A stretch of 34,209 bases of DNA from NCBI GenBank assembly GCA_964414335.1, contig CAYPWC010000001.1, positions 1 to 34,209 of the forward strand, given 5' to 3'. The DNA is from an uncultured Gammaproteobacteria bacterium (lineage in GTDB: Bacteria; Patescibacteriota; Patescibacteriia; Patescibacteriales; UBA12465). The translations under genes were made by a program, and so were the position numbers. Within the stretch, counting starts at the first letter, position 1. Every line of letters starts with the position of its first letter. Below the pieces are notes generated by a model that was given only the letters and a program-made list of their open reading frames with translations, was not told the origin of the DNA and searched no databases. Of this stretch, positions 22,437 to 34,209 are shown in pieces.

Positions 22437-25151
22437 ATGACTAAAAAAATTAAAGTAATCATTTTTATTTTTAGCTTTTTAGCCCTAGGGTTGGGAGCTA
22501 ATTTTGTGTTAGCCCAAGGCGCTGATTTCGGTTTGGAGCCAGTAACGGAAACAATTGATTTGGCTCAATCCGATCCGCGAGTAATTATTGGTCGAATTAT
22601 TCAAGTCGCCCTAAGTTTTCTAGGGGCGATTGCCTTGTTTTTAATCATGTATGCCGGTTTTCAGTGGATGACCTCCGGTGGCGATCAGGAAAAATTAGGA
22701 AACGCCAAAAAGATGCTTCGAAATGCTGTAATTGGATTAATCATTGTCTTGTCTTCTTGGGCAATTACTACTTTTATCTTGACTAAGCTTTTTGATACTA
22801 TTGGTGGCACTGGTGGGAGTATTAATAGTAGTGGTGGAAGGAATTTTGTTGACTCCGGTGTTGGGGCTATTGGTGCTTGTACGATTGATGCCTTTTATCC
22901 GGAAAATGGTCAACCGGATGTCCCGCGTAACACCTCGATTATGGTGAGCTTCAAAGAGCGGATTAGTTTAGCGAGTTTATGTGTTAATAATAGTCAAGAA
23001 GCCTGTAATTGCGATAGTAGTAGCTGCAATAAACTTAACCCGGAGGTAGTTAGAATTTATAAGAGTGATTTGGGCGATGCTTGTTCAAGTGGGTCGTGCC
23101 CGAAGACTAATGCCAATATCACCGACGTCACGGTTAGCGTTTCTAGCGACAATAAAACAATGGTTCTAATGCCGGCTACTTATTTGGGCGATCCGGCTCA
23201 AAATATTTGGTATGCCGTAAAGATTACTGGTGATTTAAGAAAAGAGGACGGCACCTCAATGTTTAAAAACTGTGACAGTAATTACTTTAATTGGAAATTT
23301 CAAGTCGGAACAAGACTAGATTTAACGCCGCCTCAAGTGGCTTTTGGTAATATTTTTCCTCTACCCGACAACGAAAACGATGTTGAAAATCAGGTTGCCT
23401 TAGCGGTTCCAGCTCAGGGCGCGATTACGGTAAATGCTTGCCCTAATACCTATAAGCCGGCTATGGTTTTAAGTGTTAGTCCTATCGGTAATACACCAGA
23501 AGGAATCGTGACACCACTGAATTATCGAGGAACCATCACTAAATTTAAAGTTGTTATTTCTTCTGATTCCCGCGACCGAGCTCAGTTATTTGATGGTAAC
23601 AGTAGTACTAACTTATTAGGTTCTGGTGATTTCGATGCTCAAGGGAATGTTAAATTCGCCTCCTATTTTATTCTTAAGGCCACCGATCGCAACCCAGGAA
23701 ATTCTTGGGAGGTCAGTCTATCGCCAGAACAGCTTGCCGATACTATTAAAATTGGGGAAGCGGTTTATACTTTTTCAAATGCCGCACCAGGTAATAATAA
23801 TATTATTGTTCCTAACAATTGTGAACCAAAAACTCAGGCTAGTCAGATTTATTCGGTATTAAGCGGTGATCCGTTGGTTAACGTCGGCTATCGAGGCGGA
23901 AGCACGGTTACGTTAACTTCTAAAGTAGCTGGAACGGCTGGTGATAAAATTTCTCTTAGCACGACTAACCAAGCCGCTCTTCAAGTGGAGCCGCTTAAAG
24001 GTGGTCGTGATCGTCAAGACTTAGCCGAAACTAAAGACAAGAAGGATGTGCCGATGAATACAGTTATTCAAGTAAATTTTAGTGAGGCTGTTAATCCTCT
24101 GCGCGTTGCTGGCCTTGCCTCAGAAGTCGCAAATTATATTCGTGTGGTTAATTATGATACTGGCAGCAAGACGGCTGGTTCAGCGTGTACGAAAGACGCC
24201 GATTGTCGGTCATATAAATGCGAGGGCTCTGCGGGCAGTCAAACTTGCTTAGGAAATTATGTCGCCGGAAAATTTTTAGTCAGTAATGCTTATCGGACAG
24301 TGGAATTTGTTTCCGACAACGAATGCGGTGTTAATGGTTGCGGAGAAAAGATCTATTGCCTTCCAGCTAATAGTCATTTGGCCGTGGAAATGGTTTCTTC
24401 TGACCTTAAAACTTGCGCCACAGATACTGATTGTGCGGGCTTTGCCCCTTTTAAAACCTGTGCCGCCACTTCTTTGGGATATAAGACTTGCCAGAATTTT
24501 GAAAATAAAAACTATCCGACCGCTACCAGCACTTTAAATGGTATTGTTGATGCGGCGATTAATTCTTTTGATGGTGATCGTGATATTTTTGCTGATGGTC
24601 CAATTGCTTTCTATAATGATAATTTTAAACCAACTGAAAATTTAAATAAAAAAGATAATTATCGTTGGTCTTTCTATGTCAACGATAAAGTCATGTTAAC
24701 CCCTCCTCAGATAGAAAGTGTTACCCCCGCTCAAGGTTTAATGGGTGTAAATTTAGCTGACCCAATTAGAATCTCTTGGAACACTTTAATGATGAATAGT
24801 ACCTTAACCACAGGTAGTCGTATAATTCAGAGTGGAGACAATGTTTTTGAACATAAGCTGATTAATTTAAGAAGCTCTAGTCCCAGCGCCGTTGGTTATT
24901 GGATTTTAAACGATAATATTGATACGGAGCCATTAGACGGTGAACCCGATAAGACTGTTTCTTGGATTAATCATTCGCCGCTTGCGGAGGCAATGTCATA
25001 TCGGGCTCAAGTTGGTTCAGGAGTGAGAGATATTTATCAGAATTGTTTTAAACCGAGCGCAGGGGTTAATTGTCCGGTTACCGCGACTAATCCATCTTGT
25101 TGTTTTGGGGCGGCCACCAGTACTTTAGGGCCAGATGGTAATTGTCAATAA
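22437..25151 (+). CDS. giant surface protein 1 (904 aa): signal peptide + VirB2/TrbC-like two-helix pilin module + Cys-containing ectodomain with several SbsA/Big_5-like Ig domains
   Basis: The signal peptide MTKKIKVIIFIFSFLALGLGANFVLA is followed by QGADFG. The hairpin runs IIGRIIQVALSFLGAIALFLIMYAGFQWMTSGGDQEKLGNAKKMLRNAVIGLIIVLSSWAITTFILTKLF. Ig-like starts are YPENGQPDVPRNTSIMVSF, KDVPMNTVIQVNFSEAV and VTPAQGLMGVNLADPIRISW. The gene ends in tandem TAATAA stops. Confidence 0.85.
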   Translation: MTKKIKVIIFIFSFLALGLGANFVLAQGADFGLEPVTETIDLAQSDPRVIIGRIIQVALSFLGAIALFLIMYAGFQWMTSGGDQEKLGNAKKMLRNAVIGLIIVLSSWAITTFILTKLFDTIGGTGGSINSSGGRNFVDSGVGAIGACTIDAFYPENGQPDVPRNTSIMVSFKERISLASLCVNNSQEACNCDSSSCNKLNPEVVRIYKSDLGDACSSGSCPKTNANITDVTVSVSSDNKTMVLMPATYLGDPAQNIWYAVKITGDLRKEDGTSMFKNCDSNYFNWKFQVGTRLDLTPPQVAFGNIFPLPDNENDVENQVALAVPAQGAITVNACPNTYKPAMVLSVSPIGNTPEGIVTPLNYRGTITKFKVVISSDSRDRAQLFDGNSSTNLLGSGDFDAQGNVKFASYFILKATDRNPGNSWEVSLSPEQLADTIKIGEAVYTFSNAAPGNNNIIVPNNCEPKTQASQIYSVLSGDPLVNVGYRGGSTVTLTSKVAGTAGDKISLSTTNQAALQVEPLKGGRDRQDLAETKDKKDVPMNTVIQVNFSEAVNPLRVAGLASEVANYIRVVNYDTGSKTAGSACTKDADCRSYKCEGSAGSQTCLGNYVAGKFLVSNAYRTVEFVSDNECGVNGCGEKIYCLPANSHLAVEMVSSDLKTCATDTDCAGFAPFKTCAATSLGYKTCQNFENKNYPTATSTLNGIVDAAINSFDGDRDIFADGPIAFYNDNFKPTENLNKKDNYRWSFYVNDKVMLTPPQIESVTPAQGLMGVNLADPIRISWNTLMMNSTLTTGSRIIQSGDNVFEHKLINLRSSSPSAVGYWILNDNIDTEPLDGEPDKTVSWINHSPLAEAMSYRAQVGSGVRDIYQNCFKPSAGVNCPVTATNPSCCFGAATSTLGPDGNCQ
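22572..22793 (+). other. VirB2/TrbC-type (T4SS-pilin-like) hairpin module of protein 1
   Basis: Two hydrophobic helices are joined by a short charged loop (TSGGDQEKLGNAKKMLR). By hand alignment, 46 of 74 residues are identical to the protein-2 module, with no gaps. Confidence 0.55.
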
Positions 25152-25172
25152 TAATATATTTATAATAAATCT

Positions 25173-33900: not shown

Positions 33901-34209
33901 CTTGTGTTCCAAATTGTTCCGGTAAGACCTGCGGTTCTGATGGTTGCGGTGGCTCTTGTGGAGTCTGCCCATCAGGAACGCTTTGTAATCCAAGCGGCCA
34001 ATGTGTCTCCAGTTGTACTCCAAATTGTTCCGGCAAGACCTGTGGTTCTGATGGTTGCGGTGGCTCTTGTGGAGTCTGCCCATCAGGAACGCTTTGTAAT
34101 CCAAGCGGCCAATGTGTCTCCAGTTGTACTCCAAATTGTTCCGGCAAGACCTGTGGTTCTGATGGTTGCGGTGGCTCTTGTGGAGTCTGCCCATCAGGAA
34201 CGCTTTGTA
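30942..34209 (+). CDS. giant surface protein 3 (at least 1089 aa, 3' end outside the window): signal peptide, Cys-rich segment, pilin-head-like motif, Ig/cadherin-like (He_PIG-like) domains, CGDGxC modules and tandem 37-aa Cys repeats
   Basis: Absent from the ORF track because it has no stop in the window. I translated the frame by hand from the ATG at 30942 (MKKNKWFIFGGIFLLLALFFVFKNSIAQS...) to nt 34208 and found no stop. It starts 21 nt after gene 2 and in the same frame. All listed ORFs in 33018-34194 are out-of-frame or antisense shadows. Confidence 0.8.
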   Translation, partial: MKKNKWFIFGGIFLLLALFFVFKNSIAQSDGADAIGVRIVPNPNHYSVYHWYEKQGFAGSPQALLVDGYEAIRDGRTVYVNAANIKGKNIYTNIYLISYNQDPSVKTVDILGQIVKNWKFNSDLVENSDPTPTCSISSLACSSDSDCASNQVCAKTGIAANSCQLKTPKNCLTDTDCPQNFFCNSTKAKVIRDLKRVGQIEELREAINDYKNINGSYPKLSAGTYLSGHSVSVWPSWSETLLPALSLTQSFIDPINRLGACLNYDTKTCWDNTSRRFVYNPQDNYLMLPAGSYGFVYKTDQNGSNYNLCAVMETKEPTADLSFSFSPSGPASSNCVTATGIIAGGTANNTPPQIIDTYLVGEADSEFNGMIKVVDYQNNHLTWEFKTNLTNWTNWSAAPVLRGTNNDNQRRIYALKAGGPKTYEAQLTISDGQGGVLTTTTPIVIVNSKPLIEAEDGEYLLSPEKTFSYSFYFSDNNLADYRTAYRLEKTKGASSFDLLGFTAQVAPAGSNRYQVTYQGKITSSQQFTGDSEYLYKITVRDKYNNEAIKNIKITIKTESPSLIFNCLSSQRVGKEYSCFLGYLTQDKRQITFSNTSNLPEGLKVVTSTDSAFLRGIATSVFNNKVAIRATDEYGVYNTKSFSLKINSYCGDGQKQAPNTEGRGGIYNDGYEDCDGRDGLSLNAQYLPVVSTSSDKQYGCTTFNADTPYPILTNNYCVFKSPTAGGGYCGDGYCQAFIKVDGVNVPVENKENCFQDCDPNCVPNCNGRVCGSDGCSGTCAPNNCPSGEKCNANGVCIGTCGDGVCGSDESAWLCPQDCTRCGDGECTLNETAQTCPNDCENTCIFDNDCPGYQVGGGLSNPWCVGSIGECVYSNPAIFECAHIPPDLEGAICSLGVNCWRVIQRGFCQYPNDGTEIGCCVLSPGKCFNIKDSNSCNQDPACEWNLRYNSCREKVNSCHGLLSKSACQNNDCAWVTSSNLNICNPIEVACVPNCSGKTCGSDGCGGSCGVCPSGTLCNPSGQCVSSCTPNCSGKTCGSDGCGGSCGVCPSGTLCNPSGQCVSSCTPNCSGKTCGSDGCGGSCGVCPSGTLC
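33903..34209 (+). repeat. in-frame 111-bp (37-aa) tandem repeat, about 2.8 copies visible, running off the window end
   Basis: Copies start at 33903, 34014 and 34125. Copy 1 differs from copy 2 at 4 of 111 nt. Copy 2 and copy 3 are identical over all 85 nt visible. The unit is C(V/T)PNCSGKTCGSDGCGGSCGVCPSGTLCNPSGQCVSS. Confidence 0.9.

What the first reader, a model, noticed from the sequence alone, without database searches (positions are those of the whole stretch)
22437..34209. Three-gene locus of giant cysteine-rich surface proteins with no recognisable enzymatic or machinery partner
The sequence directly shows three consecutive + strand genes of 904, 1915 and at least 1089 codons, which occupy the last third of the window.
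- Each gene opens with its own hydrophobic signal or anchor.
- The spacers are only 21 nt and there is no intervening terminator, so an operon is likely.
- Their ectodomains mix modules I recognise (SbsA/Big_5-like Ig, IPT/TIG, FN3, He_PIG/cadherin-like) with long stretches dominated by Cys, Gly, Asn and Asp that I cannot assign to any characterised family.

The rest is inference. Given the reduced, CPR/Patescibacteria-like gene context, this looks like a dedicated cell-surface fibre or attachment system, for example for epibiotic contact with a host cell. It does not look like an S-layer or an RTX/autotransporter adhesin. I know of no experimentally characterised system with this composition.
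Basis: partly seen in the sequence, partly recalled or inferred. Interest (0 to 1): 0.8.

Follow-up and report, generated by a model that had tools for sequence, protein, structure and literature searches.

The report
Giant pilin-anchored cysteine-rich surface proteins
Three adjacent genes of an uncultured ultra-small (Falkowbacteria-type) bacterium encode very large disulfide-rich surface proteins; two are held in the membrane by a secretion-system pilin module, the third carries a fast-changing tip, and together they probably form a conserved cell-contact structure whose function has never been tested.

Summary
Three same-strand ORFs of 904, 1915 and at least 1089 codons are separated by two 21-nt spacers with no terminator.

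- **Missed pilin module.** The hydrophobic start of genes 1 and 2 is a signal peptide plus a VirB2/TrbC-type T4SS_pilin hairpin (PF18895). It is the best-conserved part of both proteins.
- **Larger, conserved unit.** About 106 species representatives of Falkowbacteria-like Patescibacteria carry the trio at the same chromosomal place. Four small membrane-protein genes follow it, so the unit is about seven genes.
- **Conserved cysteines.** In gene 2, 118 of 120 cysteines are conserved. Its 600-residue Cys block has no Pfam, PDB-sequence or fold match and occurs only in giant gene-2-like proteins.
- **Gene 3.** It is secreted. Its first 800 residues are conserved and its Cys-rich C-terminal tip is hypervariable.

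My best reading is a membrane-anchored, disulfide-stapled surface contact or attachment complex built on "modular" VirB2-type pilins. No experiment exists, so function is inferred. I rate it a new variant of a known kind, of moderate to high interest.

The parts
22344..22436 (.). Divergent intergenic region between the RelA/SpoT gene (minus strand) and g1. It is the probable promoter region of the locus.
   Evidence: The RelA(-)/g1(+) junction is conserved in 67 of 80 related loci. The promoter itself is not demonstrated: the scan gives only consensus matches.
22437..25151 (+). g1: a 904-aa modular VirB2-type pilin. It has a signal peptide, a pilin hairpin, a Gly-rich linker and an all-beta Ig-like ectodomain with 26 Cys.
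   Evidence: 279 full-length homologues at 50-72% identity. 24 of 26 Cys are conserved at >=90%.
22572..22799 (+). g1 pilin hairpin (aa 46-121): two long hydrophobic helices joined by a short charged loop.
   Evidence: PF18895 T4SS_pilin at 40.6 bits against a cut-off of 26.6. NCBIfam pilin-like conjugal transfer protein at 31.9 bits, below its cut-off of 40. The AF2 model has helices 47-78 and 84-121. This is the most conserved segment, 68% identity.
22872..25148 (+). g1 ectodomain (aa 146-904): a chain of Big_5/SbsA-type Ig-like domains plus a Cys-rich insert at about aa 584-690.
   Evidence: Big_5 E 7e-13. AF2 mean pLDDT 81. Foldseek best hits are S-layer SbsC 4uj6 (E 4.6e-8) and Sap/EA1 domains.
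25173..30920 (+). g2: a 1915-aa modular VirB2-type pilin. Its order is signal peptide, pilin hairpin, N-terminal Cys block, TIG repeats, 600-aa Cys block, Big_5 region and two fn3 domains.
   Evidence: More than 300 full-length homologues at 45-70% identity. 118 of 120 Cys are conserved at >=90%.
25320..25544 (+). g2 pilin hairpin (aa 50-124).
   Evidence: PF18895 at 40.2 bits. g1 and g2 are 47% identical over their first ~150 aa. Hairpins of the two paralogue families are 62% identical on average across genomes.
27105..28922 (+). g2 central Cys-rich block (aa 645-1250, about 87 Cys, essentially all conserved).
   Evidence: No Pfam hit. An exhaustive phmmer search of 1.84 billion representatives found only 164 clusters. 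Those listed run from 470 to 3821 aa, mostly 1600-3800 aa, and in the long ones the block sits at a comparable position. AF2 mean pLDDT 77. No Foldseek match in PDB (best E 0.29) or BFVD (best E 0.58).
30942..34209 (+). g3 (at least 1089 aa, cut by the window end): a secreted protein with a cleavable signal peptide only.
   Evidence: No Pfam family above threshold. Homologues carry no C-terminal anchor.
31023..33341 (+). g3 conserved body (aa 28-800).
   Evidence: 520 homologues, the best 120 at 41-70% identity. Present next to g2 in 74 of 80 related loci. Only weak He_PIG/PKD-like Ig signals.
33342..34209 (+). g3 hypervariable Cys-rich tip (aa 801 onward).
   Evidence: Relatives whose bodies are 75-95% identical have tips that are 0-50% identical or unrelated, and tip lengths run from 80 to more than 800 aa.
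33908..34209 (+). 111-bp tandem repeat (2.7 copies, 98% identical) encoding a 37-aa, 8-Cys module. The window ends inside it.

Best explanation
The three genes are the first part of a conserved operon of about seven genes. The operon belongs to the core genome of Falkowbacteria-like Patescibacteria (GTDB class ABY1) and builds a fixed cell-surface contact structure.

**Shown**
- g1 and g2 are "modular" VirB2/TrbC-type pilins. Each has a Sec signal peptide, a strongly conserved two-helix pilin hairpin, a flexible Gly-rich linker, and then an ectodomain of about 760 aa (g1) or about 1790 aa (g2).
- The ectodomains are made of Ig-like modules (Big_5, TIG, fn3) and Cys-rich blocks found only in this family. 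Their cysteines are almost all invariant.
- g3 has only a signal peptide. Its 800-aa body is conserved and its Cys-rich C-terminal tip changes rapidly.
- Downstream, beyond the window, relatives encode four small single-pass membrane proteins. Two of them carry TSP3-type Ca-binding repeats.

**Inferred**
- After signal-peptide cleavage the hairpin inserts with its charged loop in the cytoplasm, so the giant C-terminal part faces outside.
- The conserved cysteines form roughly 60 disulfides in g2, making a rigid, protease-resistant stalk.
- g3 is exported and docks on g1/g2, presenting its variable tip as the specificity element for a partner cell or surface.
- The hairpins either simply anchor the complex, or also let the T4SS machinery encoded elsewhere in these genomes handle it as it handles pilins.
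For: **Pilin module**
- PF18895 is above the gathering score in both proteins. A Mycoplasma-ICE pilin-like family gives a second, sub-threshold hit. PF04956 TrbC co-hits occur in several homologues.
- The topology is three hydrophobic segments. The AF2 model shows helices 47-78 and 84-121 followed by a low-confidence linker at 123-138.
- The hairpin is the most conserved segment: 68% identity among orthologues and 62% between g1 and g2 paralogues. The two ectodomains share no detectable similarity.

**Conservation as a unit**
- 106 GTDB species representatives encode a g2 relative.
- In the 80 loci kept, hits were g2 80, g3 74, g1 69, g7 63, g5 62, all collinear and on one strand. Most misses fall at contig ends.
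- Spacers are short in relatives: 10-82 nt, with one exception of 223 nt.

**Structural constraint**
- 118 of 120 Cys in g2 and 24 of 26 in g1 are conserved.

**Specificity element**
- g3 tips diverge or are swapped while the bodies stay 75-95% identical. Tip classes differ between relatives.

**Background**
- Patescibacteria carry VirB2-like pilin arrays, and these are essential for epibiotic growth in one species (PMC12102498, PMC10633639, PMC12857230).
- CPR cells show pili-like appendages and periodic surface layers by cryo-TEM (PMC7906910).
- One genome with this locus is listed as VirB4-positive.
Against: - There is no expression, localisation or binding data of any kind.
- No T4SS machinery gene lies in the 34-kb window or within about 10 kb of the locus in the five relatives whose gene calls were inspected.
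- One draft genome with the locus is listed as lacking VirB4.
- Strict conservation at a housekeeping locus, with 36-70% identity over the full length, suits a structural envelope component at least as well as an adhesin.
- The g1 ectodomain resembles S-layer proteins most closely.
- Physical interaction of g3 with g1/g2 is pure inference.
- Disulfide formation outside the cell of presumed anaerobes is assumed, not shown.
Confidence: 0.45

Rival explanations
1. The proteins are the structural surface layer or coat of these monoderm ultra-small cells. g1 and g2 would be membrane-anchored lattice or stalk subunits and g3 an outer subunit. Their role would be envelope integrity, not attachment.
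For: - The best fold matches of g1 are S-layer proteins: SbsC (E 4.6e-8), Sap and EA1.
- Big_5 is the SbsA-type Ig domain.
- The locus is present in every relative at a housekeeping position next to SecDF and ClpP.
- CPR cells show periodic surface layers whose proteins are unidentified (PMC7906910).
Against: - The matches are generic chains of Ig-like domains with global TM-scores of only 0.1.
- No SLH or other cell-wall-binding module was found.
- A hypervariable tip on g3 is more typical of a recognition element than of a lattice.
- S-layer proteins are usually Cys-poor. This point rests on my own knowledge.
Confidence: 0.22
2. g1 and g2 are true pilus subunits. A VirB4-type T4SS encoded elsewhere would extract them from the membrane and build them into a VirB2-like pilus as minor or tip subunits. 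This would be the T4SS counterpart of the modular type IV pilins that present adhesive modules at pilus tips.
For: - The hairpin is conserved in sequence well beyond what a plain anchor needs, including the loop and polar residues.
- VirB2-like pilin arrays, and a possible pilus, are reported for Patescibacteria T4SS (PMC12102498, PMC12857230).
- The modular-pilin concept is established for type IV pili (PMC8179133).
- C-terminal additions to F-pilin are displayed on the pilus exterior. This point is from my own knowledge and was not checked here.
Against: - The locus is not linked to virB4 or other T4SS genes.
- No small major pilin lies within about 10 kb in 82 loci.
- Ectodomains of 760-1790 aa could not be packed on every subunit of a helical pilus (inference).
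- One draft genome with the locus is scored VirB4-negative.
Confidence: 0.18
3. g3 is a polymorphic contact-dependent toxin of the CdiA/Rhs type. Its variable C-terminus would be the toxin and the next small gene the immunity protein, with g1/g2 as the delivery scaffold.
For: The layout is a conserved body plus a variable C-terminus, followed by a small gene.
Against: - The variable tips are Cys-rich repeat modules or a beta-helix with no toxin or enzyme family hit.
- The following gene g4 stays homologous, at 25-54% identity, whatever the tip. An immunity gene would co-vary with its toxin.
Confidence: 0.03
4. The three genes are unrelated surface proteins that merely sit side by side, with no common structure.
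For: No direct evidence of interaction. Every recognisable domain is a generic Ig-like module.
Against: - Order, strand and tight spacing are kept across about 80 species whose g2 proteins have diverged to 36-64% identity.
- g1 and g2 share the same specialised anchor module.
Confidence: 0.07

Closest known systems
VirB2/TrbC-like T4SS pilins of Patescibacteria (Pfam PF18895; pilin arrays described in PMC12102498 and PMC10633639)
   Same: The N-terminal module is the same: signal peptide, two-helix hairpin and a Pfam hit above threshold. The genes are tandem paralogues, and the host phylum is the same.
   Different: - Described pilins are small proteins, usually next to virB4, in arrays of 2-11 genes.
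- Here the module carries ectodomains of 760 and 1790 aa.
- The two paralogue hairpins are 62% identical. Reported array members average 25%.
- No T4SS gene is nearby.
Modular type IV pilins (PilB/PilC of Streptococcus sanguinis, CofB, TcpB; PMC8179133)
   Same: The design principle is shared: a small pilin carrier module, a short linker and a bulky functional module for surface presentation. CPR lineages, Falkowbacteria included, are rich in such proteins.
   Different: - The carrier is different and unrelated: a class III prepilin helix assembled by type IV pilus machinery, against a VirB2-type hairpin here.
- The grafted parts here are several times larger and disulfide-rich.
Gram-positive S-layer proteins SbsC, Sap and EA1
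   Same: All are chains of SbsA/Big_5-type Ig-like domains, and they give the best structural matches to the g1 ectodomain.
   Different: - No SLH or cell-wall anchoring domain is present.
- Anchoring is by a membrane hairpin.
- The proteins here are Cys-rich.
- Global TM-score is only about 0.1.
Phage receptor-binding and tail-fibre proteins, and pilus tip adhesins, with a conserved shaft and variable tip
   Same: g3 shows the same pattern of a conserved N-terminal body and a swapped or fast-evolving C-terminal tip.
   Different: There is no sequence or fold relation, the locus is chromosomal and core, and there is no phage context.

Membership tests
T4SS_pilin / VirB2-TrbC pilin (PF18895, PF04956) | Profile match above the curated threshold | tested here: met
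   g1 scores 40.6 bits and g2 40.2 bits against a cut-off of 26.6. TrbC PF04956 co-hits occur in some homologues.
T4SS_pilin / VirB2-TrbC pilin (PF18895, PF04956) | Signal peptide followed by two hydrophobic helices joined by a short charged loop | tested here: met
   The hydropathy scan gives three segments. AF2 gives helices 47-78 and 84-121 in g1. The loop reads GGDQEKLGNAKK.
T4SS_pilin / VirB2-TrbC pilin (PF18895, PF04956) | Small protein consisting essentially of the pilin module | tested here: not met
   The proteins are 904 and 1915 aa, and the module covers about 75 residues.
T4SS_pilin / VirB2-TrbC pilin (PF18895, PF04956) | Encoded with VirB4/VirB6/VirB3-type machinery genes | tested here: not met
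   No such family appears among the genes of the window or within about 10 kb in loci L001-L007. The rest of the genome could not be read.
T4SS_pilin / VirB2-TrbC pilin (PF18895, PF04956) | Polymerises into an extracellular pilus | not testable with these tools
   This needs microscopy or biochemistry.
Modular type IV pilins (IPR012902 N-terminal module plus grafted domain) | Class III (prepilin peptidase) signal peptide and N-methylation motif | tested here: not met
   There is no N_methyl or type IV pilin family hit in g1-g3. The N-termini are Sec-type with A-x-A-like cleavage sites.
Modular type IV pilins (IPR012902 N-terminal module plus grafted domain) | Carrier module, linker and bulky functional module | tested here: met
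   The design is the same: a hairpin, then a Gly-rich low-pLDDT linker at 123-138, then the ectodomain. This is similarity of design, not homology.
Bacterial S-layer proteins (SbsC/Sap/EA1 type) | Cell-wall anchoring module (SLH or equivalent) | tested here: not met
   No SLH or related family was found.
Bacterial S-layer proteins (SbsC/Sap/EA1 type) | Chain of Ig-like (Big_5/SbsA-type) domains | tested here: met
   Big_5 hits. Foldseek finds SbsC at E 4.6e-8 and Sap and EA1 domains.
Bacterial S-layer proteins (SbsC/Sap/EA1 type) | Self-assembly into a two-dimensional lattice covering the cell | not testable with these tools
   This needs cryo-ET or in vitro assembly.
RTX, autotransporter or LPXTG adhesins | RTX repeats with a T1SS signal, a C-terminal beta-barrel, or an LPXTG sorting signal | tested here: not met
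   No such Pfam family was found. The C-termini of g1 (…GPDGNCQ) and g2 (…VMVDLR) have no LPXTG motif or hydrophobic tail.
Polymorphic toxin systems (CdiA/Rhs type) | Variable C-terminal toxin domain with a co-varying immunity gene | tested here: not met
   The tips vary but show no toxin family. The downstream g4 is conserved regardless of tip.

The most novel reading that the evidence does not exclude
A previously undescribed class of modular VirB2-type pilins. The T4SS pilin hairpin would serve as a carrier or anchor for ectodomains of 800-1800 aa that contain a new disulfide-knotted fold. Together with a secreted partner bearing a hypervariable tip, these proteins would form the host-recognition organelle of Falkowbacteria. 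That would put candidate genes behind the surface appendages seen on CPR cells.
Probability: 0.35. Interest if true: 0.75.

Novelty: new variant of a known kind. Interest (0 to 1): 0.6.

Why it matters
How ultra-small Patescibacteria recognise and hold on to other cells is an open question, and the proteins behind their surface layers and appendages are mostly unknown. This locus offers a concrete, testable candidate.
- It belongs to the core genome of a whole lineage.
- It links a T4SS pilin module to giant ectodomains. In the papers I searched, that combination is not described; they treat these pilins as small proteins.
- It contains a 600-residue, roughly 87-cysteine block with no sequence or fold relative outside this family.
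- It pairs conserved scaffolds with a fast-changing tip that could encode partner specificity.

It also shows that counting "VirB2-like pilins" by Pfam hits will include proteins that are probably not simple pilus subunits.

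Tried and rejected
- **Exact-sequence look-up.** g2 is not on record. The only contig with an identical g1 ends inside g2. What lies downstream in this organism therefore had to be inferred from relatives.
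- **PDB by sequence.** Single sequences and family profiles found only generic fn3, TIG and PKD-like modules.
- **Sub-block scans.** Pfam at E<=1 on ten sub-blocks and NCBIfam gave nothing above threshold for the Cys blocks or g3.
- **Fold search of the Cys block.** No hit in PDB or BFVD.
- **Type IV pilin head in g3.** From the motif LREAINDYKNINGSYP I guessed that g3 aa ~190-330 is a type IV pilin or pseudopilin head.
- **Polymorphic-toxin reading.** Rejected because g4 does not co-vary with the tip.
- **Literature.** Searches for giant or Cys-rich pilin fusions in CPR found no description.

Full report
**1.

The ORF scan lists 22437-25151 (904 aa, ATG) and 25173-30920 (1915 aa, GTG) on the + strand. 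A third frame opens at ATG 30942 and stays open for 1089 codons to the window end. Both spacers are 21 nt. Neither spacer contains a terminator-like hairpin. Such sites in the region are at chance level, 16 found against 13.7 +/- 3.1 expected.

Cysteine makes up 2.9%, 6.3% (120 residues) and 7.3% of the three products. Pfam confirms Big_5, TIG and fn3 above threshold. He_PIG in g3 is only sub-threshold.

The rest of the window is housekeeping: GyrA, MscL, RmuC, an M16 peptidase, PGA_cap, an AddA-like helicase-nuclease, RuvB, QueA, signal peptidase I, HisRS, and RelA/SpoT on the opposite strand.

**2.

g1 aa 50-114 and g2 aa 52-118 match PF18895 T4SS_pilin at 40.6 and 40.2 bits, against a cut-off of 26.6. 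The same segments match an NCBIfam Mycoplasma-ICE pilin-like family below its threshold. Some homologues also hit PF04956 TrbC/VirB2.

Each protein has three hydrophobic segments: a signal peptide and two long helices. The AlphaFold2 model of g1 has mean pLDDT 81. It shows helices 47-78 and 84-121, a disordered Gly-rich linker at 123-138, and then an all-beta ectodomain.

The hairpin is the most conserved part of both proteins, at 68% identity among orthologues. The g1 and g2 hairpins are on average 62% identical across genomes, while the two ectodomains share no detectable similarity. That level of conservation covers the charged loop and polar residues too. It suggests the module does more than supply hydrophobicity; this is inference.

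g3 has only a cleavable signal peptide. Its homologues have no C-terminal anchor.

**3. The trio is part of a larger, strongly conserved unit**

Homologue searches return more than 300 full-length relatives of g2 at 45-70% identity. They return 279 relatives of g1 at 50-72%, and 520 of the first 800 aa of g3. Sources name them Candidatus Falkowbacteria or Patescibacteria group, with labels such as "pilin", "Ig-like domain-containing" or "IPT/TIG domain-containing".

Gene maps of five relatives show the same order:
- upstream: RuvB, QueA, LepB, HisS, a small ORF, then RelA on the opposite strand;
- the locus: g1, g2, g3, g4 (about 100 aa, one TM), g5 (about 250 aa, TM plus TSP3_bac repeats), g6 (66 aa, TM), g7 (about 350 aa, TM plus a TSP3-like repeat);
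- downstream: ClpP on the opposite strand, then SecD and SecF.

A scan of one genome per GTDB species found 106 species with a g2 relative. In the 80 loci kept, tblastn found g2 in 80, g3 in 74, g1 in 69, g7 in 63 and g5 in 62. All were collinear and on one strand, and most misses fell at contig ends. The exceptions are L047, which has no g3, and L057 and L059, which give no g1 ectodomain hit.

Spacers in relatives are 2-82 nt, with one of 223 nt. The unit is conserved, but it has about seven genes, four of them beyond this window.

The window itself ends inside a 111-bp tandem repeat (2.7 copies, 98% identical). That probably explains why the contig stops there.

**4. The Cys-rich parts**

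In an alignment of 88 homologues, 118 of the 120 cysteines of g2 are conserved in at least 90% of sequences (repeated on alignment A2). The figures are 24 of 26 in g1 and 24 of 31 in the g3 body. These blocks are therefore folded, constrained modules, not low-complexity sequence. Even numbers of cysteines fit a fully disulfide-bonded ectodomain; this is inference.

The central block of g2 (aa 645-1250) has:
- no Pfam hit even at E<=1;
- no PDB sequence relative;
- only 164 matching clusters in an exhaustive HMMER search of 1.84 billion representatives.

The matches listed run from 470 to 3821 aa. Most are giant proteins of 1600-3800 aa with the block at a comparable position, and the shorter ones mostly begin inside the block. 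One distant member (3821 aa) again starts with T4SS_pilin and TrbC.

An AlphaFold2 model of the block reaches mean pLDDT 77. It has no significant Foldseek match in PDB (best E 0.29) or BFVD (best E 0.58). The statement that it cannot be assigned to a characterised family is supported.

**5. g1 ectodomain and g3**

The g1 ectodomain is a chain of Ig-like domains. Its best fold matches are the S-layer proteins SbsC (E 4.6e-8), Sap and EA1, with low global TM-scores as expected for beads on a string.

g3 has a conserved body and a hypervariable tip. Pairs of relatives with bodies 75-95% identical have tips that are 0-50% identical. Examples are 94.9% against no significant similarity, and 91% against 45%. 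Tip types include several different Cys-rich modules and, in one relative, a right-handed beta-helix. This conserved-shaft, variable-tip pattern is typical of recognition proteins; that comparison is analogy only.

**6. Mechanism proposed**

The shown and inferred steps are separated under the best explanation. In short:
- Sec export and signal-peptide cleavage come first.
- The hairpin inserts in the membrane with its Lys-rich loop inside, so the giant C-terminal part is outside.
- Disulfide-stapled, Ig-rich stalks are formed by g1 and g2.
- The secreted g3 docks on them and presents a variable tip.
- The small TM/TSP3 proteins g4-g7 act as Ca-binding accessory or base components.

Whether a T4SS handles the hairpins is open. 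No T4SS gene lies in the window or within about 10 kb in the five relatives whose gene calls I inspected. No small stand-alone pilin lies near the locus in 82 related loci.

T4SS genes are nevertheless common in class ABY1. One genome that carries the locus is listed as VirB4-positive and another, a draft, as VirB4-negative.

**7. Comparison with what is known**

Patescibacteria are known to carry VirB2-like pilins, often in arrays. Such an array is essential for epibiotic growth in Southlakia epibionticum (PMC12102498, PMC10633639, PMC12857230). Those papers treat the pilins as small proteins, and I found no description of giant fusions.

The concept of a small pilin carrier with a bulky grafted module is established for type IV pili, with many CPR examples (PMC8179133). 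That carrier is unrelated, and its defining prepilin signal is absent here.

I therefore class g1 and g2 as working like modular pilins and as containing a VirB2-family module. They do not meet the small-size and machinery-linkage features of classical VirB2 pilins. S-layer, polymorphic-toxin and "unrelated neighbours" readings are kept as rivals with lower weight.

**8. Verdict**

- The feature is real.
- The locus is conserved across a lineage.
- It belongs to a known broad theme, pilin-module surface proteins of Patescibacteria, in a form not described in the papers I could search.
- It contains an orphan disulfide-rich fold.
- Function is untested.
- Novelty: new variant of a known kind.
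- Interest: 0.6.

Noticed in passing
window 33908-34209: The window ends inside a near-perfect 111-bp tandem repeat (2.7 copies, 98% identical) that encodes a 37-aa, 8-Cys module. The assembly probably broke or collapsed here, so the true length of g3 is unknown.
   Followed up: partly
window 16455-22343; loci L001-L088: The upstream block RuvB, QueA, signal peptidase I (18641-19210), HisRS, a small ORF and RelA/SpoT (minus strand) is syntenic with the locus in most of about 80 species. The signal peptidase that would process these proteins sits 3.2 kb upstream. This may be coincidence.
   Followed up: partly
window 20578-20820: An 80-aa ORF after HisRS is conserved as a 76-77-aa gene in relatives. 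It gives only a weak, sub-threshold match to ribosomal protein S21 (E 3.4e-4, 20.7 bits against a cut-off of 27).
   Followed up: partly
window 31500-31950 (g3 aa ~190-330): The motif LREAINDYKNINGSYP resembles the start of the globular head of type IV pilins and pseudopilins. Pfam and a PDB profile search gave no support, and the region was not modelled.
   Followed up: partly
loci L013, L015, L017, L054, L082 and others: Many public MAG records that carry this Patescibacteria locus are titled "uncultured Gammaproteobacteria bacterium", "Balneolaceae bacterium" or "Bacillota bacterium". These are probably wrong taxonomic labels or mis-binned contigs.
   Followed up: no
loci L047, L057, L059: These are natural variants of the locus. 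L047 has g4 directly after g2, with no g3. L057 and L059 give no hit to the g1 ectodomain. They may be useful natural knock-outs for comparison.
   Followed up: no
window 22572-22799 and 25320-25544: The pilin hairpins of the paralogues g1 and g2 are about 62% identical across genomes, yet the ectodomains are unrelated. This points to very strong constraint or to gene conversion between the two modules.
   Followed up: partly
window 9469-10836 and 12239-13357; downstream of SecDF in L001-L007: Envelope-polymer genes flank the region: a Wzy_C O-antigen-ligase-like protein and PGA_cap within the window, and a Wzy_C-TPR protein after SecDF in relatives. The neighbourhood is rich in envelope functions.
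   Followed up: no
window 19176-20600: The mechanical ORF for HisRS (TTG start, 474 aa) overlaps the end of the signal peptidase gene. Gene calls in relatives give 456-461 aa, so the real start is probably a later codon.
   Followed up: no
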